Shown: positions 2,077-16,561, numbered from the stretch's first letter. The stretch is 64,000 nucleotides of DNA from a virus (IMGVR_UViG_2778261574_000002), one strand, 5' to 3'. A program made the numbers and translations. The notes: generated from the letters alone by a model not told the origin.

Positions 2077-3269
2077 TAATCATCATCCCCGTATAGCTTG
2101 CGGGTAACTTCTTCGTCTTCCTCCTCGTCTTCGTCCAGGTCTTGTTCCAGCCATGGGTCGTTTGATACACCTTCAGTATCAACATCTCCATAACCGCCTG
2201 TATCAACGATATCGGCGATTTCTTCCCTACGCTGCTCAATCCACAATGCGGCATCGGCGCGGCGGTTGGCGGCCCGTTCTCGCGCAACTTTGTCCAGATC
2301 TTCAAGAGAAGGGCCACCGACGGCTGTTTGCCTTTCCTCATCATCGGTATTGGTCTTCGGAGCACGCAGATCGGCTTTGATTTGCTCCAGCATCAGGGGC
2401 GGCACTTTCCCGCCATGCGCCTCGATGAATTCAGCTGCTTCCAGCACTGACCAGTTATTTTCACGCTTTCGTTCGTATGCCAGCTTAACAATGCCAGCTT
2501 GCCCCATAGACAAAGCGTGCTTTTCCGCCTCCCGGCTTTCTTTTCGATAGTTATTCCGGATGCTGTAAATGGTGTTGATCAGGCTGCTTATCTGCGCGGA
2601 ACAGCTGTTTAGCATGCTCGCGATACGGTATTCAGGCGGAGTACCTTCATCATCGTCCTTTTGCTGATCGCGCATTTCCTGCACCAGGCGAATACACGTA
2701 TCCCTGGCGTTCTCCAGCATAAGGAGATGAGAAAGAGACTTTTCAAGAAGAGTGGTTTCCAGAACATCGGCCCCGGACCGACGCAACATAGCGCGCGCGG
2801 CCTTCCGCGCTTCAACGTTATCTATCAGGTAATCGCCAGCTTCGAATTCAAAGCGTTCACCATCATCATCCAGGGTGTCGCGTTCCAGGCGATCACGTAA
2901 GGTCCGGTGGGCGCGGGTGATCACGTCATGATCATCTGAACGATCATTTATGCGCTTATTTTGGCGCTTCGCATTCTCGACTGCGGCACTGACAACGGCA
3001 TTAACTCTCTGTTTTTCCGCTATTTCAGCCGCAATATGATCACCTGCATGTTGATCATTAGAGTGATCAATGATCATGCTTTTTAGTGGCTTCCTGACTG
3101 GCTTATTTGGCTTGCGGCTGTCCGCAGTCCTGGTGTCTTCTTTGAAGGCACGGAGATAACGACGTGCGGTATTAGGGTTAAGATTAAACTCGGCGGCATA
3201 CTGTGCGATGGTGTAACCACCATCTCGCGCCAGGCGAGCAAAATTCTTTTTGTGATCGTCCCAGGTCAC
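2076..3269 (-). CDS. pacA: terminase small / pac-recognition subunit (PacA-like)
   Basis: 397 aa; N-terminal HTH-like segment, acidic C-terminus; contains the GATC-hexamer pac site in its 5' third. Confidence 0.8.
2890..3076. other. pac packaging site: two clusters of GATC-containing hexamers
   Basis: Hexamers at 2891-2896, 2918-2923, 2929-2934, 2941-2946 and 3037-3042, 3052-3057, 3064-3069, 3071-3076, flanking a ~90-bp hexamer-free core. P1 pac is known to be Dam-sensitive hexamer clusters inside pacA. Confidence 0.65.
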
Positions 3270-3354
3270 TTATGCTTCCTTTCGTAAAAACTCTTTTTGA
3301 CGCGAGGGTAACGAAAGTCACATGTCAAAAGGCCCGGAACGGGCAAGCAATCAA

Positions 3355-6337: not shown

Positions 6338-6589
6338 TTATTTTTTTGGTGCATCCTCGTTCTGATACACCGGATCGCTCCCTTTTGGCAACTGGAGGCT
6401 TAACTGCCGGTAGTGCCGTAGCCGTTCCATGAAATAGGCGCGCAGGTTTTCCGGTTGCTCACGGGCCACCTGCTCTGCAATCACAGGTATATTCAGCCGT
6501 TCTTTGTAAGCAACGCCGCTGGCGGCAAGGTCTACGTTCACCTTGTCTCGCTCTTCCTGGCTTTTAGCTGCTATATTTCGATCTGACAC
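6338..6589 (-). CDS. hot: homolog of DNA polymerase III theta subunit (Hot-like)
   Basis: 83 aa; [39 protein letters not shown] resembles HolE theta. Confidence 0.8.
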
Positions 6590-6621
6590 AAGAAACCTCC
6601 AGGAGTTAGTGGATCAGGCAC

Positions 6622-6972
6622 ATGCACAATAACGTTCTCAATGTTAGCCGTTCAATTCAGACAATCAGAGACTGCACCAGTGTGGTGGCATCAATCCCAT
6701 TGCGAAACAGCATAGACGAACTGCAAATTCGTGTATTGAATCCGAATCAGGCTAATAAGCAATTGCGCTTTATTTTGACGCTGAAAAGTGAAACAGAGGG
6801 GATAAAGCACAGCGTAAAAGTGTTTTCTGAGGCCATTCTGCTTAATGGGAAGCTCCGGCATCTGGTAAGGCCAGAACGTCAATATCCTGACGTCCTGGCG
6901 CGTGAAAAAGACCTTCTTTCTGAAGTTCAGGATAGGGTGATCGATTTCGTCAAATGCTATCCCCTGCATTGA
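6622..6972 (+). CDS. hypothetical protein (strand assignment ambiguous)
   Basis: 116-aa ORF fully overlapping a 92-aa minus-strand ORF (6691-6969); + ORF has the more protein-like composition but a weak ribosome-binding site. Confidence 0.25.
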   Translation: MHNNVLNVSRSIQTIRDCTSVVASIPLRNSIDELQIRVLNPNQANKQLRFILTLKSETEGIKHSVKVFSEAILLNGKLRHLVRPERQYPDVLAREKDLLSEVQDRVIDFVKCYPLH

Positions 6973-7241
6973 GGGCAGGTGTTCCCTTCCGCAAAGTAGG
7001 GAAAATTGCTATCAAGTTCATCACACCATCTGCGATGGTCGTAGCACCAAAACGCCTCCCACGGTGCACGGAAATACTTCATCCACCAGGACACTCGATC
7101 AGGTATATCTGCTGGTGGCAGTTCTTCTGGCAATAATTTGCCTGATAATTCCCTTTCCGCCCGCGACAGCATTTTTTTGAGGCTCGCGTTCTCTTTTTCA
7201 AGCTCATCTACGCGCACCTGTAATTCAGCTTTCGTTGGCAT
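6957..7241 (-). CDS. hypothetical coiled-coil protein
   Basis: Internal start MPTKAELQVRVDELEKENASLKK with AGGTGG ribosome-binding site; overlaps the stop of the upstream gene. Confidence 0.4.
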   Translation of the reverse strand: MPTKAELQVRVDELEKENASLKKMLSRAERELSGKLLPEELPPADIPDRVSWWMKYFRAPWEAFWCYDHRRWCDELDSNFPYFAEGNTCPQCRG

Positions 7242-7875
7242 GGTCCACCTCATGCTTTTCAGCCACCAGCGGCAATAAAGCCCTGGCCATCTTATGAACC
7301 AATAGTGCATCAATAATGCCAAGCGTATGCCCCGGCTTAATGTTTAATGCCGCCTCAAGGCGACACCTTTCCAGGCCACTTTTCTCGGCTTGTTTATGAT
7401 GATCTGGTGTAATAACGTCGCCCAAAACACGGCTTATTCTTTCTCGTAATTGCTGGGTGCCAGCACACTTGATCGCTGTATCGTGGAGACGGTTAACCAG
7501 TTCGCGATAAACATGCGGCTTAATTCGGATACGTTCACCGGTGACGCCCTTTCCTGGTGCTGGCACCGAACTATCCGGAATATCCGGATAGTTGCCAGCC
7601 TCGTAAGCTACCCGCAGCCAGTGCATGAATGTTTCAGTGGACACACAACCACAGTCCACATCGATTTTCCCGCGTTGCTGTTCCAGCCAATGCTCAAAAT
7701 TCAATCTACACGTATTACTTTCATGTTGCTCTTTTTGTCTCAAGGCCAGCATCTGCTGGGCTATTTCCAATACTTCATCTGCCGTATATCCAGCACCGTG
7801 ACCATACATTTCGATACGGGAAATAATCTCTGATATGCGCTCTTCAGTGATTCTGGTCATTTCTTTTTGCGCCAT
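7225..7875 (-). CDS. hypothetical protein, 216 aa
   Basis: Long ORF on the operon strand; no recognisable motif. Confidence 0.5.
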   Translation of the reverse strand: MAQKEMTRITEERISEIISRIEMYGHGAGYTADEVLEIAQQMLALRQKEQHESNTCRLNFEHWLEQQRGKIDVDCGCVSTETFMHWLRVAYEAGNYPDIPDSSVPAPGKGVTGERIRIKPHVYRELVNRLHDTAIKCAGTQQLRERISRVLGDVITPDHHKQAEKSGLERCRLEAALNIKPGHTLGIIDALLVHKMARALLPLVAEKHEVDHANES

Positions 7876-8231
7876 TTCTTTTCACATTCCTTAGTCCATT
7901 TTTCAATGTTCATTTTGGCAATATCAGTCATTCCATCACCTAAGAAATACTTTTTCCGGTACGTCTTGCACTTAAACCACACTACAACAGCCACCAACCA
8001 GAAAATAAAAGGCCATACAGCAATACCAACTCCAGCCGCGATAAAGCCCAATAGCCATAAATGAAGCTCTCCAACTTCTGTTTGCGGCAATATTCTTAAA
8101 GAATTAAACAGCAGACTGAAGGAATGGTCGTATGCATTGGCGGTATAAGACATGCAATCCATATAATTAAAGTCATAGCCTGCGGCTGCCGCCCATAATG
8201 GGCGGTCAAGAAAATGTTTTAGTGTCATCAT
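7857..8231 (-). CDS. hypothetical membrane protein
   Basis: 124 aa; hydrophobic stretch LWLLGFIAAGVGIAVWPFIFWLVAVVVWF; AT-rich coding sequence. Confidence 0.45.
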   Translation of the reverse strand: MMTLKHFLDRPLWAAAAGYDFNYMDCMSYTANAYDHSFSLLFNSLRILPQTEVGELHLWLLGFIAAGVGIAVWPFIFWLVAVVVWFKCKTYRKKYFLGDGMTDIAKMNIEKWTKECEKKWRKKK

Positions 8232-8237
8232 ATAAAT

Positions 8238-8627
8238 TTAAGGTTCAGACCAGTTATCTTCAATAGCAATGCTTAATCTTTGTAGCCATTCTGCTAATTT
8301 CAGCATTGCTTCTCTTTCGCTTAAACCACGAGGAAAATCATCAAGCGAAATTGTTGGCTTGAAGCCCCCGTAATTATCCATTTCAACAGTCAGATTTTGC
8401 TCCAGCACGGTATTCCTTACGCGGCTATTGTGCCGAAGCAAATATACTGAACGTGATTTATTGGTTTTATGGTCAAACTGATATTCGGTAAGTATCATCT
8501 GGCTTTTGCCATGACTATTACCTCTCCACATACCTACCTCACTTAATAAAACAACTCCATGCGTAGTTGATGATTTTTTCCTACGTAATATAAATCTGCA
8601 CTCCGGCAGTAAAACCAAAGCCAACAA
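8238..8627 (-). CDS. hypothetical protein
   Basis: 129-aa ORF, start uncertain; AT-rich. Confidence 0.4.
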   Translation of the reverse strand: MLALVLLPECRFILRRKKSSTTHGVVLLSEVGMWRGNSHGKSQMILTEYQFDHKTNKSRSVYLLRHNSRVRNTVLEQNLTVEMDNYGGFKPTISLDDFPRGLSEREAMLKLAEWLQRLSIAIEDNWSEP

Positions 8628-8709
8628 TTGCTGAAAAAATCAAAACATTTACTTTTGACATTATAAATTTTCTCTCGGTGTCGTAGGTGATAGCACCATA
8701 ATTGATAAT

Positions 8710-8961
8710 TTAGTGAGTTAGCAGTTCCATTTTTTGGATGATTTCCGCATGAGCATCATCGTTATCAACACTTAACTCGTTTAATGCCTCTCGCACCACA
8801 TCAACTTCTTCTGGTTGGAAGAAATCATCTCGGTAGTCACCAAATAGAACCGAAACAAGCCTGCCACCAGCAACATCAAGATTGGCGCTAACAGGTGGCT
8901 CTTTGCCATCCTCAAATTCGACTACAAAAGTTATTTTTCCCATCGTTACCACCAGCGACAA
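8710..8961 (-). CDS. small acidic hypothetical protein
   Basis: ~80 aa (MGKITFVVEFEDGKEPP..). Confidence 0.4.
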   Translation of the reverse strand: MSLVVTMGKITFVVEFEDGKEPPVSANLDVAGGRLVSVLFGDYRDDFFQPEEVDVVREALNELSVDNDDAHAEIIQKMELLTH

Positions 8962-9028
8962 ATTGAATACAAACCCAGTGCTGCCGCCATCACAATTCCT
9001 ACCGTTGCGAATGCTTCAGGCCAGCTCG

Positions 9029-9361
9029 TTATCTCACCTCCAGTCTCCATACCGCCTGACCAATCCGGCTGGCATGGGTATCTTTGGATACTGTTCCGTC
9101 TTTAGCCATCTCCATAAGAATTTTGCGCAAATCTGCCGAACGCCATTCTTCATCAGGAAATTCCTTCTCCATTGCCAACCGCAGATTCCAGGTTGCCATC
9201 CTGAATGGATATTCCCCGCCGAGAGCTTTATCTTGCAGGGCAGCCCGGGAACGCATCACCTGCAAAACCTTCTCTTTTACATTCATCATTTCGCCTCCTG
9301 CGGCGGTTCTGGTAGCGGCATCCAGTGTGACGGTTTCCACGACGCACCAGGAATTATCCAA
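9029..9361 (-). CDS. hypothetical protein
   Basis: 110-aa ORF; overlaps the 3' end of the upstream gene. Confidence 0.4.
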   Translation of the reverse strand: MDNSWCVVETVTLDAATRTAAGGEMMNVKEKVLQVMRSRAALQDKALGGEYPFRMATWNLRLAMEKEFPDEEWRSADLRKILMEMAKDGTVSKDTHASRIGQAVWRLEVR

Positions 9362-10401
9362 CCATCATTAGCGTCAGGATACCCCGGTATGTAAGTCGCC
9401 CATTTCATTCGCCAGTCACCTTTCCTATCAAACTCCCTGGCAACAAGAACGGCTGTTTTGCTATCCGGCATTCGCTCACTACAGCTTATCCAACCATCCG
9501 GAGTTACCGGAACTTGCGGAATGGCTGTCTGCTCTCGAACGTCATTAGGCGCTATAGGTTCTGCTGCCAACTGACTGGCATATTTGTTAATGGTAACGAT
9601 AAGCTCTTGCTCGGCCTCATCCAGACAATCACCGATACCTCGCCTGTCACCGTCAAAATCATCGAAATCGGCACGAATCTTGGCAACCTCCTGGATTGCG
9701 GACAACACTTCACCAGGAATAAGCCGAGAGTTGCCCGATAGTGCATTCTGCTCCAGTGATGCTTTTACAAACCACGCTGCCTGAACTATAACGCCATGAA
9801 TCCAGCGCAAATCAGCATCGCGATCTTTCTTTTTCATCTTTTCGCCACTTAAGGCCTTGCTTATGTGGCTGCGTACCAGGTCTTCATGTAATTCCTTCGC
9901 CTCCTCAATGGTGAAACCACCAGGCAGAAGAGCCGGAGTTACCGGAGAGCTGGTTGACGCTTCCGGGATTTCCCGAAAATTATTGGTTGACGAATTCTTG
10001 CTTTCCCGAAAGTTTCCGGACTGAAGCATGGCGGTGCGGCAGGCGTTCCATATTTCGGCAGCAATATCGCGCTCGCTATCGGTTAATTTGTACGTGGAAA
10101 CATAGCCAGAGAGCATTTCTACGTTTTCCGGAGTTGCTTCTTCCGGCACTACCGGCGCTGGCGGGGCGATGCGTCCAAGCAACTTATTTACCTCTTTCGC
10201 CATCGCGTCATATTTATCTAAATGGCGATTAGCTTCTAAGCAGACTCGGCGCATCTGATCTGAGTTAACTCGTTTAACTGGATCTGCTTCCAGCGATGCC
10301 AGCGCAATCCGTGCCAGTTCCATTTGTTCACCACGGGTAAGCCCGTTTTCAAGCGGATTTTTAATGAACAATTCAATACGTTCTTTGGTAATAGTGGTCA
10401 T
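9286..10401 (-). CDS. hypothetical protein with DUF551-like C-terminus
   Basis: 371 aa; C-terminal ..WKPSHWMPLPEPP; shares an internal module (APPxPVVPEE..WNACRxAMLQ) with the 11114-11509 product. Confidence 0.55.
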   Translation of the reverse strand: MTTITKERIELFIKNPLENGLTRGEQMELARIALASLEADPVKRVNSDQMRRVCLEANRHLDKYDAMAKEVNKLLGRIAPPAPVVPEEATPENVEMLSGYVSTYKLTDSERDIAAEIWNACRTAMLQSGNFRESKNSSTNNFREIPEASTSSPVTPALLPGGFTIEEAKELHEDLVRSHISKALSGEKMKKKDRDADLRWIHGVIVQAAWFVKASLEQNALSGNSRLIPGEVLSAIQEVAKIRADFDDFDGDRRGIGDCLDEAEQELIVTINKYASQLAAEPIAPNDVREQTAIPQVPVTPDGWISCSERMPDSKTAVLVAREFDRKGDWRMKWATYIPGYPDANDGWIIPGASWKPSHWMPLPEPPQEAK

Positions 10402-10411
10402 GTGTTACTCC

Positions 10412-10675
10412 TTAACCCGCAGTGCTTTCAACTGATGAGGGGAACAAAATCTTTTCATCAAACCCTGCATTCATATCATGAACAGCAACACACCAATCCA
10501 TCGACGAACGATTATCAAGAGCCTCCATGATTTCATCCATGCGGCGTAGGTCATACAGGTAAATGCTTTTATCGCCAATGGTGTAAAAGCCAATTTTTTT
10601 CGGTGATGGACAGCGATCAAGAACTTCCTGTAATTCGTTCAACCATGCCCGTTCTTTTTTTGTCAAAGTTGCCAT
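10412..10675 (-). CDS. hypothetical protein
   Basis: 87 aa from MATLTKKERAWLNELQ with AAGGAAAA ribosome-binding site; starts 1 nt after the upstream stop. Confidence 0.45.
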   Translation of the reverse strand: MATLTKKERAWLNELQEVLDRCPSPKKIGFYTIGDKSIYLYDLRRMDEIMEALDNRSSMDWCVAVHDMNAGFDEKILFPSSVESTAG

Positions 10676-10676
10676 A

Positions 10677-10895
10677 TCAGTTTTCCTTATACGGATTAAT
10701 TTTATTGTGCAGTGTGTTGAACGACGCCCATACCACGTCGTTATACAATTCAATAACTGGTTCAATTATTTTCCCGATTGCCCAGACAAAAATTAGCGGG
10801 GATATCGGTATCATCAACACGATAAACAGAATGAGAAACAAAAGTTCTGTCGCTCTACTTTTTCGCGGATATTCTTTTCTGAATAATGTAGGCAC
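10677..10895 (-). CDS. small membrane protein (GTG start)
   Basis: 72 aa; hydrophobic LLFLILFIVLMIPISPLIFVWAIG; preceded by AAAGGAGAGTGAT. Confidence 0.4.
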   Translation of the reverse strand: MPTLFRKEYPRKSRATELLFLILFIVLMIPISPLIFVWAIGKIIEPVIELYNDVVWASFNTLHNKINPYKEN

Positions 10896-10896
10896 A

Positions 10897-11112
10897 TCAC
10901 TCTCCTTTGTTGCTTCTCAAAATTTTATGCCCTGGCGCAAAAGCACGCGTTTTGTCGACGCTTATTCGCCACCCATCTTTACGTGCCTCTTTTGCACAGC
11001 CAGCCCATGACGTACCGATATACTCACCGAAGTCTGGCACTGGATATACACCTTCCGTACACTGGCGGCAGTCACAATAGAGATGCATGGTGTAACTTGC
11101 GGCAATAGCCAT
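10897..11112 (-). CDS. Cys-rich hypothetical protein
   Basis: 71 aa from MAIAASYTMHLYCDCRQCTEG; preceded by the recurring AAAGGAGAGTGAT junction. Confidence 0.45.
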   Translation of the reverse strand: MAIAASYTMHLYCDCRQCTEGVYPVPDFGEYIGTSWAGCAKEARKDGWRISVDKTRAFAPGHKILRSNKGE

Positions 11113-11113
11113 A

Positions 11114-11509
11114 TCACTCTCCTTTACCCTGAAGCATGGCGGCGCGGCAGGCATTCCAGCCTCTCACCTCTGCAATAGCGGCAACAGCATCGACCGCGTA
11201 CATTTTAAGAGGGTTAGGCATTGGTTTTTCTTCAGGTACTACTGGCACTGGAGGGGCGGCATAAACAGGAATAACGTCCGCTTGCTCTTTATTACTTTCA
11301 TCCGTTAAAGCCCAGAATAATTTCCCGGCCGGATGTTTGAAAATATAAGCAACTGGTTCTGCGCTATCAGCTTCGCGCCGCTTCTGTAGCTCTGCTGCCA
11401 TTGCTCTCACGACTTCAACTGGTGCCCTTGCAGCAAACTCTATGTTGGTGATCAGCTCATTAAGATATTGCTCGCTGGGATACTGTTTCTTATTGGTAAT
11501 AGTGATCAT
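11114..11509 (-). CDS. hypothetical protein
   Basis: 131 aa; ATG overlaps the upstream stop (ATGA); shares a module with the 9286-10401 product. Confidence 0.5.
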   Translation of the reverse strand: MITITNKKQYPSEQYLNELITNIEFAARAPVEVVRAMAAELQKRREADSAEPVAYIFKHPAGKLFWALTDESNKEQADVIPVYAAPPVPVVPEEKPMPNPLKMYAVDAVAAIAEVRGWNACRAAMLQGKGE

Positions 11510-12021
11510 GCCGCGTTTCCTTCTTTCTTATTAACAATTACACCGTCATATATTTCATTAAGGTGCCCTCTCAACTCCATGCGCCTTAATGCAGATAACA
11601 TGTAATCGCATTCAACCTGCTTATTCCCGGTAAATGGCTTATCGTCAGGATTACCCCAACAGCAATTACCCGTGGGCCATCCATGTACTTTCCGTACTCT
11701 TCCGTTAACAACGTGAAGTAATCCCCAGCCGGGAGGTAAATCCTCAATTGAAATAATTCCCGGCTCACTAATAAAGAATCGCCAGTCGCCCATGCCAAGT
11801 GAGGGATTTTTACGGAAACGCTTTTTTCTATCTGCCAACAAGTCAGCACGAGAACACTTCGCCTCTATCAGGCATGATGCTGAATTTCTGAATCCCATAG
11901 CATCTGGCTGTTCTCCGGTACTGGTTACAGCAACAAAGCGGTCATGAAAGCAAACCTTGAACCCGTTGCGCTTAAGGAACTTGTACGCAATCTGACAGAG
12001 TTCGTGGTGTGTTAACGCCAT
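11506..12021 (-). CDS. PD-(D/E)xK nuclease-like protein
   Basis: 171 aa from MALTHHELCQIAYKF; D..EAK motif (..DAMGF..CLIEAKCS..); preceded by AAAGGAGAGTGAT. Confidence 0.5.
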   Translation of the reverse strand: MALTHHELCQIAYKFLKRNGFKVCFHDRFVAVTSTGEQPDAMGFRNSASCLIEAKCSRADLLADRKKRFRKNPSLGMGDWRFFISEPGIISIEDLPPGWGLLHVVNGRVRKVHGWPTGNCCWGNPDDKPFTGNKQVECDYMLSALRRMELRGHLNEIYDGVIVNKKEGNAA

Positions 12022-12022
12022 A

Positions 12023-12583
12023 TCACTCTCCTTTGATGCGAATGCCAGCGGCGCGGGAATCATTCCATCGCTTTACTTCTTCACGAATTACGTCAATGCA
12101 TTCTTTCGAATCCATTAGGTAATCTTCATCAAAAAGACGTTCCTGTTCGTTTTCTATCGCAACAATGATTGCTTCAACTAACTTTTGTTCCTGAGAATCA
12201 CTTTCTAACTCTGCTATGCGCTTACTCCCATCCGAGATAACACCTTCGTAATATTCACGCTGTTCGTTGAGTTTTGATTTTGTCTCCTCAAGCTCAACGC
12301 GCAGCTTCCCTACCGTTAGCGCAATATCCTCGTTCTCCTGGTCGCGGCGTTTTATGTATTGCTGGTTTCTTTCCCGTTCATCCAGAAGCGCCAAGACGGT
12401 AGCCGGATTGGCTGCGGCGATGAATTCAGCATCACGAGATTCGTTTTCACTGAACACCATAGCTATTTGCTCATGGTTTATGCCGTCAGTGGAGTAAATC
12501 TCATCGTCGAATTCAACAGCCCACTTACCTTTCGTAGCCTTCTCTGCCGCCTCACGCAGTGCCTGATAGTCAATCTTGCTCAC
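12023..12583 (-). CDS. Ea22-like protein (paralog 1)
   Basis: GTG start after AAAGGAGG, overlapping the upstream TGA; N-terminal ..SKIDYQALREAAEKATKG and AEFIAAANPATVLALL motifs. Confidence 0.5.
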   Translation of the reverse strand: MSKIDYQALREAAEKATKGKWAVEFDDEIYSTDGINHEQIAMVFSENESRDAEFIAAANPATVLALLDERERNQQYIKRRDQENEDIALTVGKLRVELEETKSKLNEQREYYEGVISDGSKRIAELESDSQEQKLVEAIIVAIENEQERLFDEDYLMDSKECIDVIREEVKRWNDSRAAGIRIKGE

Positions 12584-13281
12584 TGGTTGCCTCCTTTGCG
12601 AATCTGTTCCGCCCATTCTTCAAGGGATTTCTCCGCATATTCACCGGACAGGCCATCAATCGGGTACGGTTCATTAGCCAACTCTTCTTTCGCTGACAGA
12701 ATCATGCGCGTAACGTCGAAAACTTCACGCAAAGACTTATTGATAAATCCGTGATTGAACGCAGCAGCAAGACGGCTGGCGGTATAGTTAATCCCCTCGT
12801 TGCGTGCTTCCGCACGAATTTCAGCCAGAAAAGCATCGGTAGCTGGAGTTTCGCTGTGGTGTAGGGCATCGTTGATAATCATTGCAGCAACTCCGGCCTG
12901 CCCTGCATCCGTGACCGACACATGATCAAGAGTTACAGCCATTGCGTGTTTCAGCCCAGCGTTCTCTGCCACCAGAGCCGCGAGCTTAGTCTCAAGCGGT
13001 GCTATTCGGCACATAGCATCAATATTTGTGTCCTCCAGGCGCTTAATTTCACCAAGTAGCTCCAGTGCAACCTTTGGGTTGAATGCGGCAATATAACGAG
13101 CGTTGTTCTCTGCGTTTTTCAGTCCATCAAAGCCGGTCCATTTGATAACGTCTTCACATCGTTTATCACCGGGCGTATGCACCGCATACGTACCAGTACC
13201 CGGCGAAATAAATGCGACCCATTCGCCCTGTGTTGCCTGTTTTGCTATCTCACGCAGTGCCCGGTAATTAATTTCGCTCAC
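12580..13281 (-). CDS. Ea22-like protein (paralog 2)
   Basis: GTG start after AAAGGAGG, overlapping the upstream TGA; ..SEINYRALREIAKQATQG and ARYIAAFNPKVALELL motifs. Confidence 0.5.
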   Translation of the reverse strand: MSEINYRALREIAKQATQGEWVAFISPGTGTYAVHTPGDKRCEDVIKWTGFDGLKNAENNARYIAAFNPKVALELLGEIKRLEDTNIDAMCRIAPLETKLAALVAENAGLKHAMAVTLDHVSVTDAGQAGVAAMIINDALHHSETPATDAFLAEIRAEARNEGINYTASRLAAAFNHGFINKSLREVFDVTRMILSAKEELANEPYPIDGLSGEYAEKSLEEWAEQIRKGGNQ

Positions 13282-13517
13282 TGGCTGCCTCCTTTGCGGA
13301 GTTGCGCTTCGATGCACGAAAAAAAAGACTCCCGAGTATGACTGTTAAGAGCTGGTGCGAACGCCGCGTTAAGAACGGCAGCATCACAGCCGTCATCAAT
13401 ATAGAGCGCAATTTTTTTCTCCAGGCGCGCTTTGGCTTGCTGCAACTGCATACCCCGGCACGCACGCGGGATATAATCAGCAATTTGAGCGATAGCTTTT
13501 TCGTTCTGTTTAAACAT
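13278..13517 (-). CDS. hypothetical protein
   Basis: 79 aa; C-terminus ..QLRKGGSQ encodes the next gene's ribosome-binding site. Confidence 0.45.
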   Translation of the reverse strand: MFKQNEKAIAQIADYIPRACRGMQLQQAKARLEKKIALYIDDGCDAAVLNAAFAPALNSHTRESFFSCIEAQLRKGGSQ

Positions 13518-13713
13518 GCTTCACCTCGATAGGCTTGATGGTGTCTAACAGCAGTCGACGGCGCGTATTTTCTGCAAAGTGGCGGCGTCCGGTATCTTTG
13601 TGGTAAAACTCATTTTTGCCGACGACCCACATCCGCTCTGTTTGGTGCAGTTTTTTTACCTGCGGCCCGTCTTTGGTGATCACGGTGCCGGTATGGGTTT
13701 TTACGATTGTCAT
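13510..13713 (-). CDS. hypothetical protein
   Basis: 67-aa ORF on the operon strand. Confidence 0.4.
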   Translation of the reverse strand: MTIVKTHTGTVITKDGPQVKKLHQTERMWVVGKNEFYHKDTGRRHFAENTRRRLLLDTIKPIEVKHV

Positions 13714-13796
13714 GCCACTACCTCTTCGAACAGATGAACGAGACAGGCCGATGTTCGTCCACCTGAAAAACTGACGATTTGATGCATACTCACGGT

Positions 13797-14525
13797 TTAT
13801 TCCTGAATGCGCTTAAACTCGATTACCCACACCCAGGGATTAGCGTTCCAGCTTTCTTCACCATAGATGGATTCCCACAGGCGCTGGAACGCAACCTTGG
13901 CCATTGCGAAATCCCCCTTGGGAGTAAGGAATGTTCCCGGGTGATCAGGAAGCAAACTTCCAGCAGGCGGAACGCCCTCAGCCCTTGCATCGCATTCGCT
14001 GATATCGTTCAACCGTTCAACGCGCACGTTGGTAATTTCCAACAGAATGCGTGATGCCCATCGCGGCATGTGAATTGATGGACGCCACCCACCATCAAAC
14101 TTTTCATTCACAGTGTGAGGTTTCCAGTCGGCATCATCGGGTATCGACCATAAGCCGTAATCACCAGGTTTTTGCTCGCAACTGGCCCGATAAATCCTTG
14201 CTGCGTTCTTCTCATCGCCACGACAAAGGTTGTCGTTCCAGTCCACACTGCAACCATCCTCATTGCCTAATATCGCCCATGTTTCACGAACCCAAATTCG
14301 ATCGCCGACGATACCAAATGGGCAATTGAAAACACTGCTTACACCATCAGCCCCGTACCACTGAAAACCTGCACCAATTTTTCTAACCATCACTGGTGCT
14401 TCTGGACCAACTTCCGCAGGCTGATTTTTCATTATCCGCCGCGTCTGCGTTTTCCTTCCTTCGAGGATGGCCCGGACCATCTCATCGTTAAAAATCATGC
14501 CGCGCTCTTTCACTTCGCCTTTCAT
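13797..14525 (-). CDS. ASCH-domain-like protein
   Basis: 242 aa; N-terminal MIFNDEMVRAILEGRKTQTRR resembles the ASCH fold signature. Confidence 0.5.
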   Translation of the reverse strand: MKGEVKERGMIFNDEMVRAILEGRKTQTRRIMKNQPAEVGPEAPVMVRKIGAGFQWYGADGVSSVFNCPFGIVGDRIWVRETWAILGNEDGCSVDWNDNLCRGDEKNAARIYRASCEQKPGDYGLWSIPDDADWKPHTVNEKFDGGWRPSIHMPRWASRILLEITNVRVERLNDISECDARAEGVPPAGSLLPDHPGTFLTPKGDFAMAKVAFQRLWESIYGEESWNANPWVWVIEFKRIQE

Positions 14526-14649
14526 GCATCCCCCTTACCCATGTGCGACGATGCCGCCAAAAGTGATAGAGAACAGCCAGAAATAGATCGCGGCCATAAT
14601 GATTTTGAATGCCGTGTTCATATTTTCAGCTCCTGTGATTGATTGGATA

Positions 14650-14680
14650 CATGCCGCGCCTTGCGGCATGTTTTTATTTT
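14650..14680 (+). terminator. hairpin plus T-tract (plus-strand orientation)
   Basis: CATGCCGC-GCCTT-GCGGCATG followed by TTTTTATTTT. Confidence 0.45.
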
Positions 14681-14703
14681 CACTTTCTCTGTTTTAAAAA
14701 TCA

Positions 14704-14720
14704 AGATTTATTAGAGCAAT
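14704..14720 (-). promoter_or_regulatory. C1 operator-like 17-mer (16/17)
   Basis: AGATTTATTAGAGCAAT on the + strand. Confidence 0.55.
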
Positions 14721-15226
14721 TATTGTTGGTGGAGAAGCGCGTTTTCATACTCCCTGACCATTAACGTAAGTACGCCGTGACTCCTGAAAACACGCGCCAC
14801 TTCAATCTTATCTTCCAGCGCGAACGCAATTTTACTTAGACCAATTTTCTTCAGGAGATCAATCTTTGCTGGACCGTCATTTCTGTCATCGGTGGCAGGA
14901 CGCATAGATAGCAAAGGCTCAGCCCCATTTGTTACGTGCTTACGCAACCAGGCTCGTGTTTTATCCCTGGCTATCTCACAGCGCCCGGTTACAAACCAGA
15001 GGGTGTAAATGCCGGACAACTGGCGCACCATATCAATAACTGGAGTGATGGGAGCATCAGTGTCACAGGCAAGGTTAAACTCGTTCCAGTGCTCTGTTAA
15101 TGCACCTTTGCCAGGTGGTGGAAGTAAATGCAGCCTGTCTTCCGTTGCCTCTGATATCGTCCCATCAATATCTACTATGACGATGTACGGACGTTCCTGG
15201 TGTGCGTGTTTATTGAAAATACTCAA
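14720..15226 (-). CDS. HAD-superfamily phosphatase-like protein
   Basis: 168 aa; DxDGT motif (IVIVDIDGTIS) near the N-terminus. Confidence 0.55.
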   Translation of the reverse strand: MSIFNKHAHQERPYIVIVDIDGTISEATEDRLHLLPPPGKGALTEHWNEFNLACDTDAPITPVIDMVRQLSGIYTLWFVTGRCEIARDKTRAWLRKHVTNGAEPLLSMRPATDDRNDGPAKIDLLKKIGLSKIAFALEDKIEVARVFRSHGVLTLMVREYENALLHQQ

Positions 15227-15298
15227 ATGCCCTCCTCATTGGACGAAAAAAATGCTGGTGGGCGCACTCCACCAGCATTAAATGTGACACTGTAACTA

Positions 15299-16561
15299 TC
15301 AGCGAACGTAAATAGTGCCGCCGTTCTCTTTTTCCCATGCATCGCTACGTGCATAGCAAACATCGAGAAGTCTTCTTGCCGCAGTTTCCTCTAAACCCAA
15401 TTCAACAACCAACTGCTCATGACGGCGGGTAACTACATCAAATAGGCTATGCAGCCCTTTATTGGCCAGTTCATCAATGAATTCCGGTTCGAACGGCAGC
15501 TCTACCTCTGCCAACATAACCTCTTGCGCCCACTCAACTCGACGGACCAGTTCCGGGCGGCGGCTTTCCATCTCTTTACAGATCAATTCATGGAAGAACT
15601 CTACCCAACCTTCCGGCTGGAACTCGCGGAAAATGGCCAACGGCTGGAAGTTTGGCATCAACCATTCGTTGATCCGGATATCAATGGCATAGCCCATGTC
15701 GCAGCAGAACTGATAAGCAAAGTCCAGCTTAGAAACGATATAAGGACGCTCGTTATTGAACTCTTTAGGCGATGAGATCCCATAAGCCAGGAGGCGCGGG
15801 AAGAAGGAGATTTGCCCTAACGTCGGATGAAGTTTGCTTGCAGGGAAACGGCGCTCAGTAATGCCATACATTTCCTTCTTGAGCGTCGCAAATTTGGCAT
15901 TCTCATTAACCAGCGCGGTAACCTCTGCTTTTTTATTAGCAAATGCCACGCGCGCTTCGCTTGCATCTTTAATAGTTTTTTTGAGCTGTTGGTTAAGGTC
16001 GGCGACCTGCTTACGCAGTTCCTGTCGCTCGCTTTTAGCTTTGTTATAGCGTTTCTCAAGGTTAAAAGGATCAAGTTTCATGATCTCTTTATATTGAGAT
16101 TTTAGCGTTGAAATCTGTGAGTTCCGCAGTTCAACCATCGCGGTCATTTCATTGAGTTTTGTTTCCAGCTCAATGCTTATACGTTCGGCATTATCAGCAC
16201 GCTGGTTGGCGTCATGCGTCGCATCGTCGATCGCGTCCTGTTGCTGGCGTTTCAAATGTTCAATTTGCAGCTGAAGCTCTTCAATTTCTTTACCCTTCAG
16301 ACCGAGATCCAACTGCATATTTTCAGCTGCATCTACCAGGGAGTTATGGCTATCAGCTTCTGCGTTATAAACATCAATAAGCTGTGCGTGAAGCATCTCC
16401 GCTGACTGAACCGCATTATCAAAAAAACGTGCTGTGAGGTCATCACAACTAACGCGGCGTTGCGCGGCCCGGATGTTCTGGATAATGGCCGGGATACCGG
16501 CATTCAGGACATCAGGGATAGATACATTTTCGATTGATTGGTTTTGTGCTGAAGTGCTCAT
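15299..16561 (-). CDS. hypothetical protein with N-terminal coiled coil
   Basis: 420 aa; heptad-rich, Q/E/K-rich N-terminal half. Confidence 0.5.
   Translation of the reverse strand: MSTSAQNQSIENVSIPDVLNAGIPAIIQNIRAAQRRVSCDDLTARFFDNAVQSAEMLHAQLIDVYNAEADSHNSLVDAAENMQLDLGLKGKEIEELQLQIEHLKRQQQDAIDDATHDANQRADNAERISIELETKLNEMTAMVELRNSQISTLKSQYKEIMKLDPFNLEKRYNKAKSERQELRKQVADLNQQLKKTIKDASEARVAFANKKAEVTALVNENAKFATLKKEMYGITERRFPASKLHPTLGQISFFPRLLAYGISSPKEFNNERPYIVSKLDFAYQFCCDMGYAIDIRINEWLMPNFQPLAIFREFQPEGWVEFFHELICKEMESRRPELVRRVEWAQEVMLAEVELPFEPEFIDELANKGLHSLFDVVTRRHEQLVVELGLEETAARRLLDVCYARSDAWEKENGGTIYVR

What the first reader, a model, noticed from the sequence alone, without database searches (positions are those of the whole stretch)
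10412..13517. Recurring gene-junction cassettes and shared protein modules
Several adjacent minus-strand genes begin with the same junction, AAAGGAGAGTGAT-ATG-GC (starts at 11112 and 12021, GTG variant at 10895) or CAAAGGAGGCARCCA-GTG-AGC with GTG overlapping the upstream TGA (starts at 12583 and 13281). Two neighbours are Ea22-like paralogs, and the 9286-10401 and 11114-11509 products share an internal module. This points to repeated module exchange by recombination at conserved junctions.
Basis: seen in the sequence. Interest (0 to 1): 0.5.

Follow-up and report, generated by a model that had tools for sequence, protein, structure and literature searches.

The report
Shared gene-junction adaptors in phage genes
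A run of small phage genes is stitched together by a few short, reused junction sequences that end one gene, carry the ribosome-binding site and start the next; the same junctions join many different gene pairs in other E. coli phages, a known kind of phage mosaicism.

Summary
AAAGGAGAGTGAT-ATG/GTG sits at starts 12021, 11112 and 10895. CAAAGGAGGCARCCA-GTG-AGC sits at starts 12583 and 13281. Neither occurs elsewhere in the 64 kb, and none is expected by chance.

I found two further reused sequences: a leader, CATGAYCACTATTACCAA, at starts 11509 and 10401, and an intragenic linker, TCCGGTAACTCCGG, present twice.

Each junction places a strong Shine-Dalgarno sequence in the last codons of the upstream gene, with its stop 1 nt before the next start or overlapping it.

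The window is a P1-like phage-plasmid. The array is a lambda-type 'ea' gene island in the known variable region at pmgT, which reference P1 has deleted.

In public viral contigs the first junction links about 28 upstream to about 35 downstream gene types. Unrelated proteins share tails such as AAGIRIKGE*. One downstream gene has at least 12 different upstream neighbours, and 79 of 80 copies keep the junction.

Similarity breakpoints between relatives cluster at the junctions. The window itself switches between two sequenced plasmid lineages inside a junction.

Lambda and HK620 carry the same junctions. This is therefore an instance of the published 'conserved boundary sequence' model, not a new mechanism.

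It probably explains the Ea22 'K/RGE motif of unknown significance'.

The parts
12017..12055 (-). Type-1 junction, full form. CGCGCCGCTGGCATTCGCATCAAAGGAGAGTGAT|ATGGC encodes the tail RAAGIRIKGE* of the Ea22-like-2 protein, the Shine-Dalgarno AAGGAG, the stop TGA, a 1-nt spacer and the ATG of the 171-aa gene (start 12021).
   Evidence: The same 39-nt patch is found in 1664 of 5426 complete E. coli genomes, at the end of lambda ea22 and at HK620 hkaG/hkaF.
11108..11125 (-). Type-1 junction core, AAAGGAGAGTGAT|ATGGC. The 131-aa protein ends AMLQGKGE* and the 71-aa gene starts at 11112.
   Evidence: PHROG 926 aligns from residue 1 of the 71-aa product.
10893..10908 (-). Type-1 junction with a GTG start, AAAGGAGAGTGAT|GTG. 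The 71-aa protein ends SNKGE* and the DUF4014 gene starts at 10895.
   Evidence: Pfam DUF4014 positions 2-72 of 72 match residues 2-72.
10671..10688 (-). Diverged type-1 junction, AAGGAAAACTGAT|ATGGC. DUF4014 ends YKEN* and the 87-aa gene starts at 10675.
   Evidence: (family D3, 78%). In other phages the same 87-aa gene is preceded by the canonical type-1 junction behind five other upstream genes.
12520..12606 (-). Type-2 junction plus the Ea22 N-terminal leader. ...GAACAGATTCGCAAAGGAGGCAACCA|GTGAGCAAGATTGACTATCAGGCACTGCGTGAG... The upstream protein ends EQIRKGGNQ*, and the GTG start (12583) overlaps the stop TGA. The switch between the two plasmid lineages lies at 12606-12580.
   Evidence: (family D1).
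13218..13301 (-). Second type-2 junction plus Ea22 leader. The 79-aa protein ends AQLRKGGSQ*, and the GTG start at 13281 overlaps the stop TGA.
   Evidence: (family D1, 75% over 81 nt). An exact type-2 junction lies at HK620 hkaH/hkaG.
11493..11510 (-). Type-3 junction or leader, C|ATGATCACTATTACCAA (MITITN...). The ATG at 11509 overlaps the stop of the 171-aa gene (ATGA).
10385..10402 (-). Type-3 junction or leader, C|ATGACCACTATTACCAA (MTTITK...). This is the start of the 371-aa DUF551 gene at 10401.
   Evidence: The same leader starts HK620 hkaE.
12023..12583 (-). Ea22-like gene 2 (186 aa). Its central coiled-coil segment (about 12400-12285) is shared with lambda Ea22, and its tail is AAGIRIKGE*.
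   Evidence: Pfam PF13935, 136 bits. It gives partial matches to 17 PHROG families. Breakpoints cluster at 12400-12384 and 12291-12285.
12580..13281 (-). Ea22-like gene 1 (233 aa), a distant paralog of gene 2 (31% identity).
11506..12021 (-). 171-aa gene, probably of the PD-(D/E)xK nuclease fold. It is flanked upstream by a type-1 junction and downstream by a type-3 junction.
   Evidence: D40 and E53-x-K55 are invariant in 27 homologs. The AlphaFold model has mean pLDDT 82.8. Foldseek gives only weak hits (E at least 7e-3), nearly all to nucleases of that fold.
11129..11257 (-). Shared module PPVPVVPEE...WNACRAAMLQ at the C-terminus of the 131-aa protein.
   Evidence: (families D2, D5); breakpoints at 11266-11255.
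10021..10167 (-). The same module, here internal to the 371-aa protein (residues 79-127). In other phages it ends a separate gene (...WNACRAAMLHGKGE*) that is followed by a type-1 junction.
   Evidence: (upstream cluster U7); breakpoints at 10051-10033.
9498..9511 (-). Intragenic linker TCCGGTAACTCCGG (VPVTP) directly before the DUF551 domain. A second copy lies at 9933-9946.
   Evidence: Breakpoints fall at 9511/9509 and 9935 in the neutral set. The same linker occurs in HK620 hkaE.
14704..14748 (-). Probable operon control region. ATTGCTCTAATAAATCT is a C1-operator-like site, with an overlapping promoter-like site, at the position of P1 OpmgT/PpmgT.
   Evidence: No terminator-like site with a convincing T-tail lies on the minus strand between there and about 7300.

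Best explanation
The minus-strand array from about 14525 to 7225 is a tightly packed operon of small lambda-type early-left ('ea', or exo-xis-type) accessory genes. It sits in the pmgT variable region of a P1-like phage-plasmid.

Its gene boundaries are built from a small set of reusable adaptor sequences. Each adaptor is a translational-coupling cassette. The last three to ten codons of the upstream gene (tails such as ...RAAGIRIKGE* or ...QLRKGGNQ*) carry a strong Shine-Dalgarno sequence, AAGGAG(G), 6 nt from the next start. The upstream stop TGA lies 1 nt before that start or overlaps it.

Because the ribosome-binding site of gene N+1 lies inside gene N, a swap of either gene keeps both genes expressed only if the join preserves the adaptor. 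The adaptors are therefore kept nearly identical across many different gene pairs. That in turn makes them patches of shared sequence, 16 to about 46 nt long, between otherwise unrelated DNA.

Recombination between co-resident prophages, phages and phage-plasmids resolves in these patches and reshuffles whole genes. The likely agents are phage single-strand-annealing recombinases of the Red-beta, RecT or Erf type, or RecA for the longer patches. Similar short patches inside genes do the same for protein domains: the Ea22 leader and coiled coil, PVVPEE, WNACRAAMLQ and the SPVTP linker.

Shown: the anatomy, the reuse of the adaptors with many partners, and the coincidence of similarity breakpoints with them. 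Inferred: translational coupling itself, the recombination enzymes, and selection as the force that maintains the adaptors.
For: - Anatomy. The Shine-Dalgarno, stop and start geometry can be read directly. The motifs are far above chance and confined to the island.
- Start sites. Family models and RefSeq annotation begin at the junction starts. Alternative upstream starts are not conserved.
- Reuse. Type 1 joins 28 upstream to 35 downstream flank clusters, and type 2 joins 9 to 14. Unrelated proteins share identical tails.
- Gene-anchored sampling. The 171-aa gene has at least 12 upstream partners, and 79 of 80 loci keep the junction. Most also keep the longer patch GC[T/A]GGCATTCGCATCAAAGGAGAGTGAT, which extends beyond what a ribosome-binding site needs.
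- Other solutions exist. Other junctions in the same operon use different Shine-Dalgarno, stop and start arrangements, so this exact sequence is not required for coupling.
- Breakpoints. They are enriched at junctions (9 of 26 against 11.5% expected, p = 0.0017). HSP ends across about 340 loci pile up at 12057-12034, 12023-12011, 11126-11125, 10906-10903 and 10679.
- A direct case. The window is 99.0% identical to one P1-like plasmid down to 12580 and 99.2% identical to another from 12606, with different genes beyond the junction in each.
- Spread. The 39-nt type-1 patch occurs in 1664 of 5426 complete E. coli genomes, at up to 6 places per genome. The same junctions occur in lambda and HK620.
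- Published figures. Minimal efficient pairing is 23-27 bp for Red-beta and 31-34 bp for RecA (PMC3945230). The boundary-sequence model is summarised in PMC3233612, PMC3029335 and PMC2327257.
Against: - For pairs of contexts that differ on both sides, the exact shared run is usually only the core. The median is 17 nt; 14% reach 23 nt and 5% reach 31 nt. For most pairs this is below the published pairing minima.
- The left edge of the shared tail differs among upstream genes (IRIKGE, GIRIKGE, AAGIRIKGE, RAAGIRIKGE). This pattern could also come from illegitimate in-frame joins into a pre-existing tail.
- No upstream gene body was found carrying both type-1 and type-2 tails. I therefore could not show a tail being swapped on one body.
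- In lambda the type-1 tail of ea22 is not followed by a gene start. The tail can therefore persist without the coupling function.
- Roughly two thirds of breakpoints in the region are intragenic.
- The motif-based contig sets are ascertained on the motif, and closely related prophages are counted more than once.
- No experiment here shows coupling or recombination.
Confidence: 0.75

Rival explanations
1. Illegitimate recombination plus selection. Joins form at random, and only those at gene ends survive. The junctions look alike because selection for a strong ribosome-binding site and tight coupling repeatedly converges on the same sequence.
For: The exact run shared by unrelated contexts is usually only 16-18 nt. 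The left boundary of the shared tail varies among upstream genes. This is the prevailing general model for phage mosaicism (PMC3233612; PMC3029335).
Against: Identity covers the stop codon choice, the spacer base and the first codons, and often about 20 further nt (GCTGGCATTCGCATC) that have no role in ribosome binding. Five other junctions in the same operon achieve coupling with quite different sequences. The motif is absent from the other 58 kb of the window. The switch between the two plasmid lineages falls in a patch that both carry.
Confidence: 0.13
2. Local tandem duplication. The repeated junctions and the two Ea22-like genes arose by duplication within this element, and nothing was exchanged with other elements.
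For: Two Ea22-like genes are adjacent and share junction plus leader (75% over 81 nt, family D1).
Against: The paralogs are only 31% identical. Each has a 91-99% identical segment or copy in other elements with other neighbours. The type-1 copies flank unrelated genes. The same junctions join dozens of other gene pairs elsewhere.
Confidence: 0.04
3. The motifs are ordinary coding sequence of longer genes that start at the upstream ATG or GTG codons, so they are not start cassettes.
For: Longer ORFs exist in the window: 12063, 11154, 12616 and 13317.
Against: Across 80 loci, upstream in-frame start codons for the 171-aa gene occur at many different positions or not at all. The extensions would lie in the tail of whichever unrelated gene is upstream. 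Pfam and PHROG models begin at residue 1-2. RefSeq calls the junction starts.
Confidence: 0.03
4. A dedicated cassette system or RNA element. The junction would be a recognition site for a site-specific recombinase or nuclease (integron-like, or homing by the nearby 171-aa nuclease-like protein), or a structured RNA signal.
For: The 171-aa neighbour has a probable PD-(D/E)xK nuclease fold and is almost always bracketed by junctions of types 1 and 3.
Against: The five junction RNAs show no significant or shared secondary structure (z from -1.4 to +0.9). There is no Rfam match. No recombinase gene lies within the array. The junctions occur between many gene pairs that lack the 171-aa gene.
Confidence: 0.05

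Closest known systems
Short conserved 'boundary sequences' (linkers) between modules of lambdoid phages: Susskind and Botstein 1978; Clark et al. 2001, phage HK620
   Same: Short sequences are conserved at gene boundaries between otherwise unrelated genes and are proposed to target homologous recombination. This is how the model is summarised in PMC3233612, PMC3029335 and PMC2327257. HK620 itself carries an exact type-2 junction (hkaH/hkaG), a type-1 junction (hkaG/hkaF) and the type-3 leader (hkaE).
   Different: Here the host element is a P1-like phage-plasmid, not a lambdoid phage. The adaptors are also shown to reach into the coding ends as shared peptide tails and leaders. I could not read Clark et al. 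(not held), so I do not know whether these exact sequences were described there.
Lambda exo-xis region and Ea22, including the terminal 'K/RGE motif of unknown significance' (Dydecka et al. 2020, PMC7093339)
   Same: The protein family is the same (PF13935). The central coiled-coil segment is shared. Lambda Ea22 ends with the identical GCTGGCATTCGCATCAAAGGAGAGTGA. The paper notes that all Ea22 proteins end in K/RGE and calls its significance unknown.
   Different: The present analysis reads KGE* as the translation of AAA GGA GAG TGA, which is the Shine-Dalgarno and stop of the junction. Unrelated non-Ea22 proteins share it. In lambda no gene start follows it, so there it looks like a relic.
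Variable region 8 (pmgT to humD) of P1-like phage-plasmids (PMC9603915)
   Same: The location is the same. The window is collinear with P1 on both sides, and the island lies at pmgT. That paper lists this as one of eight variable regions and describes pmgT replaced by a gene cluster in plasmid JL22.
   Different: That paper does not analyse the junction sequences. Here, reference P1 is shown to be the deleted form.
Integron gene cassettes (attC sites plus IntI integrase)
   Same: Single promoterless genes are arrayed in one orientation behind a common promoter and reshuffled as units at short conserved boundary elements.
   Different: There is no attC-like folded inverted repeat and no integrase in the array. 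The boundary elements are coding and ribosome-binding sequences, and exchange is most likely by general recombination.
Relaxed homologous recombination by Rad52-like phage recombinases (Martinsohn et al. 2008, PMC2327257; De Paepe et al. 2014, PMC3945230)
   Same: This work gives the enzymology that would act on patches of this size. Red-beta works on short and diverged homology, with a minimal pairing segment of 23-27 bp.
   Different: Those studies used homologies of hundreds of bp. Only a minority of the adaptor pairs here reach 23 bp.

Membership tests
Conserved boundary sequences of lambdoid phage mosaics | A short sequence is conserved between otherwise unrelated flanking genes | tested here: met
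   Type 1 joins 28 upstream to 35 downstream flank clusters and type 2 joins 9 to 14. In the gene-anchored set, 79 of 80 loci keep the junction behind at least 12 different upstream genes.
Conserved boundary sequences of lambdoid phage mosaics | The sequence lies at gene or module boundaries | tested here: met
   All copies span a stop and a start. The starts are supported by family models and annotation.
Conserved boundary sequences of lambdoid phage mosaics | Similarity breakpoints between related genomes coincide with the sequence | tested here: met
   9 of 26 unique breakpoints lie within 25 nt, against 11.5% expected (p = 0.0017). The window switches between two plasmid lineages at 12606-12580.
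Conserved boundary sequences of lambdoid phage mosaics | Exchange at the sequence depends on homologous recombination functions | not testable with these tools
   This needs genetic crosses. Only 14% of unrelated-context pairs share at least 23 nt of exact identity.
Translationally coupled gene junction (termination-reinitiation) | A Shine-Dalgarno sequence lies 5-9 nt upstream of the start, inside the upstream gene | tested here: met
   AAGGAG or AAGGAGG lies 6 nt from the ATG or GTG at all five sites.
Translationally coupled gene junction (termination-reinitiation) | The upstream stop overlaps the downstream start or lies within a few nt of it | tested here: met
   TGA-T-ATG (+1) for type 1 and GTGA (-4) for type 2.
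Translationally coupled gene junction (termination-reinitiation) | Downstream translation depends on upstream translation | not testable with these tools
   This needs reporter fusions or ribosome profiling.
Ead/Ea22-like proteins (Pfam PF13935) | The score is above the Pfam gathering threshold | tested here: met
   136.4 and 93.0 bits against a cutoff of 27.
Integron gene cassettes | An attC-type imperfect inverted repeat forms a folded site | tested here: not met
   No significant or shared fold at five junctions.
Integron gene cassettes | An adjacent IntI-type integrase gene | tested here: not met
   None among the array's proteins. The only integrase in the closest plasmid lies more than 10 kb away, next to the c1 repressor gene.
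prfB-type programmed +1 frameshift site | A slippery CUU-UGA-type codon pair with a Shine-Dalgarno sequence 3 nt upstream | tested here: not met
   The sequence is AAGGAG-AG-UGA. The last sense codon, GAG, cannot re-pair in the +1 frame, and the Shine-Dalgarno sequence abuts it (read).
P1-like phage-plasmid (Punavirus-type backbone) | Collinear, high-identity backbone with P1 on both sides of the island | tested here: met
   Window 26330-13831 matches P1 72683-85182 at 98.1%. Similarity resumes at window 7606, which is P1 85182, and then runs through hot, humD, phd/doc, lpa, pacAB and c1.

The most novel reading that the evidence does not exclude
The adaptors form a self-maintaining 'plug-and-play' cassette standard shared by two otherwise non-homologous kinds of temperate element: lambdoid prophages and P1-like phage-plasmids.

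Selection for translational coupling keeps 16-46-nt patches identical. These patches then act as natural recombineering arms that move single accessory genes across element types. The shared peptide tails and leaders (GIRIKGE, RKGGNQ, MTTIT, MSKIDYQALRE) would then be recombination scars rather than functional protein motifs.

A bolder add-on is that the nuclease-like 171-aa gene, which is bracketed by adaptors, stimulates exchange by cutting nearby.
Probability: 0.35. Interest if true: 0.55.

Novelty: new member of a known kind. Interest (0 to 1): 0.35.

Why it matters
How phage genomes become mosaics is still debated. [quoted passage not shown] The other is random illegitimate joins filtered by selection (PMC3233612, PMC3029335).

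This island is a dense, well-populated example in favour of the first view. A handful of adaptors are reused in over a thousand E. coli genomes, with many partner genes. That makes the question directly testable by crosses with recoded junctions.

It also offers a simple reading of the Ea22 C-terminal 'K/RGE motif of unknown significance'. On this reading the motif is the neighbour gene's ribosome-binding site, not a protein functional motif. This matters for structure-function work on Ea22 in Shiga-toxin phages.

It shows accessory genes passing between lambdoid phages and P1-like phage-plasmids. The latter are vehicles of resistance genes.

For annotation, the adaptors are reliable markers of true start codons, including GTG starts, in these gene-dense regions.

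Tried and rejected
- RNA structure at the junctions. Five 71-nt contexts folded no better than shuffles and had no common fold. There was no Rfam hit in 6500-15400.
- Tail swapping on a single gene body. I clustered 339 distinct type-1 and type-2 contexts by upstream body and found no body with both tail types. The Stx-phage Ea22-like gene that I hoped would show a swap has a different body.
- Programmed frameshift across the type-1 junction. Rejected from the sequence: GAG cannot re-pair in the +1 frame, and the Shine-Dalgarno spacing is wrong.
- Local tandem duplication as the whole explanation. Rejected.
- Functional annotation of the array. NCBIfam gave nothing. All PHROG hits have unknown function, except phrog_1832 for DUF4014. 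A PDB sequence search for the 171-aa protein found nothing meaningful. The fold search gave only weak hits, almost all to nuclease folds.
- Clark et al. 2001 could not be read. The link to their boundary sequences therefore rests on secondary citations and on my own reading of the HK620 sequence.
- Some singleton hits of the 16-mer in non-enterobacterial viral contigs (clusters U14-U27) are probably chance matches and carry no weight.

Full report
**Observation.**
- AAAGGAGAGTGATRTG occurs three times, all on the minus strand, with starts at 12021, 11112 and 10895 (the last a GTG).
- CAAAGGAGGCARCCAGTGAGC occurs twice, with starts at 12583 and 13281.
- Neither appears elsewhere in the 64 kb, and neither appears in dinucleotide-preserving shuffles.

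Read in frame, type 1 is AAA GGA GAG TGA T ATG. The upstream protein ends KGE*, one spacer base follows, then the start. Type 2 is AAA GGA GGC ARC CAG TGA, with the GTG start overlapping the stop. In both, a strong Shine-Dalgarno sequence (AAGGAG or AAGGAGG) lies 6 nt before the start and inside the upstream gene.

The protein claims also hold.
- Both neighbours match Pfam Ead_Ea22 and are 31% identical over their first 100 residues or so.
- The 371-aa and 131-aa products share PPxPVVPEE...WNACRxAMLQ (45% over 51 aa).

I add four points.
- The junction at 10675 is a diverged type 1.
- The copies at 12021 and 11112 share a patchy similarity of about 56 nt, not just 18 nt.
- A third reused start sequence, CATGAYCACTATTACCAA ('MTTIT...'), is at 11509 and 10401.
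- A 14-nt intragenic linker, TCCGGTAACTCCGG, occurs twice in the 371-aa gene.

**Context.**
The window is a P1-like phage-plasmid. The closest public records are E. coli plasmids of about 95 kb that carry c1, pacAB, lpa, phd/doc, humD, hot and a dnaB-type (ban-like) helicase gene.

Against reference P1 the window is collinear at 98% from 26330 to 13831, which is P1 72683-85182. Similarity resumes at 7606, at the same P1 coordinate, 85182. So 6.2 kb (13830-7607) is absent from P1. P1 pmgT is an out-of-frame fusion of the ASCH-domain gene (14525-13797) with the gene at 7875-7225.

This pmgT-humD stretch is a published variable region of P1-like phage-plasmids (PMC9603915).

A C1-operator-like site and a promoter-like site lie at 14748-14704, where P1 has OpmgT and PpmgT. 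I found no convincing internal terminator on the minus strand. The array is therefore probably one repressor-controlled operon.

Its genes are lambda-type 'ea' genes: Ea22-like (two copies), DUF551, DUF4014 and several small genes of unknown function. No phage record or E. coli genome covers as much as 80% of 9000-14600, although thousands share pieces at 90-99%. The region is extremely mosaic.

**Are the junctions reused elsewhere?**

Around type 1, the 250-nt flanks fall into 28 upstream and 35 downstream clusters, in 68 combinations. Translating the flanks shows unrelated proteins ending in the same tails...(R)AAGIRIKGE*...AAAGKGE*...AMLQGKGE*...HLRTKGE*.

Around type 2, nine upstream bodies all end (A/E)Q(L/I)RKGG(N/S)Q*. 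Fourteen downstream clusters mostly begin MS(K/E)I(D/N)YQALRE and then diverge into unrelated bodies.

Those sets are selected on the motif, so I also sampled by gene.
- Among 80 loci found through the 171-aa protein, the gene is preceded by at least 12 unrelated upstream genes.
- 79 of these keep AAAGGAGAGTGA[T/G]ATGGCG, usually with the longer patch GC[T/A]GGCATTCGCATC.
- The 87-aa gene usually follows DUF4014, with the diverged junction. It also follows five other genes through the canonical junction.
- Downstream, the 171-aa gene is always followed by the type-3 leader, attached to different genes.
- The 39-nt type-1 patch is present in 1664 of 5426 complete E. coli genomes, at up to six places per genome.

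**Do exchanges happen at the junctions?**
HSP ends of the window against about 340 loci pile up at the junctions, for example 12057-12034, 12023-12011, 11126-11125, 10906-10903 and 10679. They also pile up at a few intragenic patches: the Ea22 coiled coil, PVVPEE, WNACR and the DUF551 linker.

In eight loci chosen only for overall similarity, 9 of 26 distinct breakpoints within 10412-13517 lie within 25 nt of a junction start. The expected share is 11.5% (p = 0.0017).

The clearest case comes from two plasmids.
- The window is 99.0% identical to pCFSAN004176P_03 from 15300 down to 12580. That plasmid then continues with a DUF4752 gene.
- The window is 99.2% identical to pMB5646_3 from 12606 onward. 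That plasmid has a different gene before the junction, ending AAQLRKGGKQ*.
- The switch therefore falls within the type-2 patch that all three carry.

**Are these real starts?**
Several lines agree.
- The in-frame upstream extension of the 171-aa gene has start codons at many different positions, or none, depending on the neighbour.
- Pfam DUF4014 and Ead_Ea22, and PHROG families 926 and 1714, align from residue 1-2.
- RefSeq annotations use these starts.

**Mechanism.**
Shown: the adaptor anatomy, its reuse with many partners, and breakpoint clustering.

Inferred: the ribosome-binding site of each gene lies in the tail of its upstream neighbour, so only joins that preserve the adaptor keep both genes expressed. 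This keeps adaptors identical, and the identical patches serve as crossover sites.

The published minimal pairing lengths are 23-27 bp for Red-beta and 31-34 bp for RecA (PMC3945230). The full GIRIKGE patch (33-46 nt) meets them. Among contexts that differ on both sides, however, the median exact run is 17 nt, only 14% reach 23 nt and only 5% reach 31 nt. Many exchanges would therefore need short-homology or microhomology events.

The variable left edge of the shared tail suggests that new genes first join a pre-existing tail by an in-frame illegitimate event and are shuffled afterwards. Convergence on a good ribosome-binding site does not explain three things:
- the conserved stop codon, spacer and about 20 extra nucleotides;
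- the fact that five other junctions in the same operon use different solutions;
- the absence of the motif from the P1 backbone.

RNA structure, Rfam families, an integron-like system and frameshifting were examined and rejected (sequence reading).

**Comparison with what is known.**
The idea that short conserved boundary sequences target homologous recombination between lambdoid modules goes back to Susskind and Botstein 1978 and Clark et al. 2001. It is set against Hendrix's model of illegitimate recombination plus selection (PMC3233612, PMC3029335, PMC2327257).

HK620, the phage of the Clark paper, carries an exact type-2 junction at hkaH/hkaG, a type-1 junction at hkaG/hkaF, the type-3 leader at hkaE and the same DUF551 linker. 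Lambda Ea22 ends with the identical GCTGGCATTCGCATCAAAGGAGAGTGA, and its start is a diverged type 2. I could not read Clark et al., so whether these exact sequences were described there is unknown.

Dydecka et al. 2020 noted that all Ea22 proteins end in a K/RGE motif of unknown significance (PMC7093339). The simplest reading of the present data is that this motif is the translation of the junction's Shine-Dalgarno and stop, because unrelated proteins carry it too.

**Verdict.**
It is an instance of a known kind of phage genome architecture, here in a P1-like phage-plasmid, so novelty is limited.

Its value is as an unusually clean and abundant test case for the boundary-sequence model. It also gives an explanation for a small open point about Ea22.

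Noticed in passing
window 13830-7607, compared with P1 NC_005856 position 85182 (locus L371): Reference P1 lacks this 6.2-kb island. P1 pmgT looks like an out-of-frame deletion fusion of the ASCH-domain gene (14525-13797) with the 216-aa gene at 7875-7225. P1 pmgU corresponds to the C-terminal part of that 216-aa gene. The join in P1 (CCTGGGT|TACGAGG) has little or no microhomology.
   Followed up: partly
window about 13793-13713, minus strand: A 27-codon remnant (VSMHQIVSFSGGRTSACLVHLFEEVVA*) survives from the phosphoadenosine-phosphosulfate reductase gene. That gene is intact between the ASCH gene and the 67-aa gene in relatives (L373, L375). About 790 nt are deleted here, with a 7-nt overlap of the flanking matches (13730-13724).
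   Followed up: partly
window 11506-12021, minus strand; proteins P0094, P0095, P0107: The 171-aa protein has invariant D40 and E53-x-K55 and a confident model. Its only fold matches are weak ones, almost all to PD-(D/E)xK nucleases. In Salmonella the same domain is fused behind an Ea22 N-terminal region. So a gene that is separate here is elsewhere the C-terminal domain of an Ea22-like protein.
   Followed up: partly
locus L370 (lambda NC_001416) 2897-3340, minus strand, between orf61 and ea22: An unannotated reading frame ends ...ISKQRGSK* with its TGA overlapping the GTG start of ea22. This is a diverged copy of the type-2 junction. Separately, the type-1 tail at the end of lambda ea22 is followed by non-coding DNA rather than a gene start.
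   Followed up: no
window 9000-14600 compared with Stx phages (loci L372, L373): Segments of this P1-like plasmid island are 92-95% identical over 300-480 nt to lambdoid Stx-converting phages. By the criteria of De Paepe et al. 2014, that counts as recent exchange between the lambda-like and P1 groups. That study did not detect such exchange, possibly because reference P1 has the island deleted.
   Followed up: partly
window 9734-9934 and 9951-10014, minus strand: About 200 nt of the 371-aa DUF551 gene are absent from the closest plasmids (L001, L376, L377), where the gene is annotated as pseudogene fragments. Just upstream is a 33-nt imperfect tandem repeat that encodes a repeated NFRE motif.
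   Followed up: no
window 7225-7875, minus strand: The 216-aa protein begins MAQKEMTRITEERISEII. It therefore contains an internal MTRITEERI that resembles the 'MTTITKERI' type-3 leader. This may be another relic of the same adaptor.
   Followed up: no
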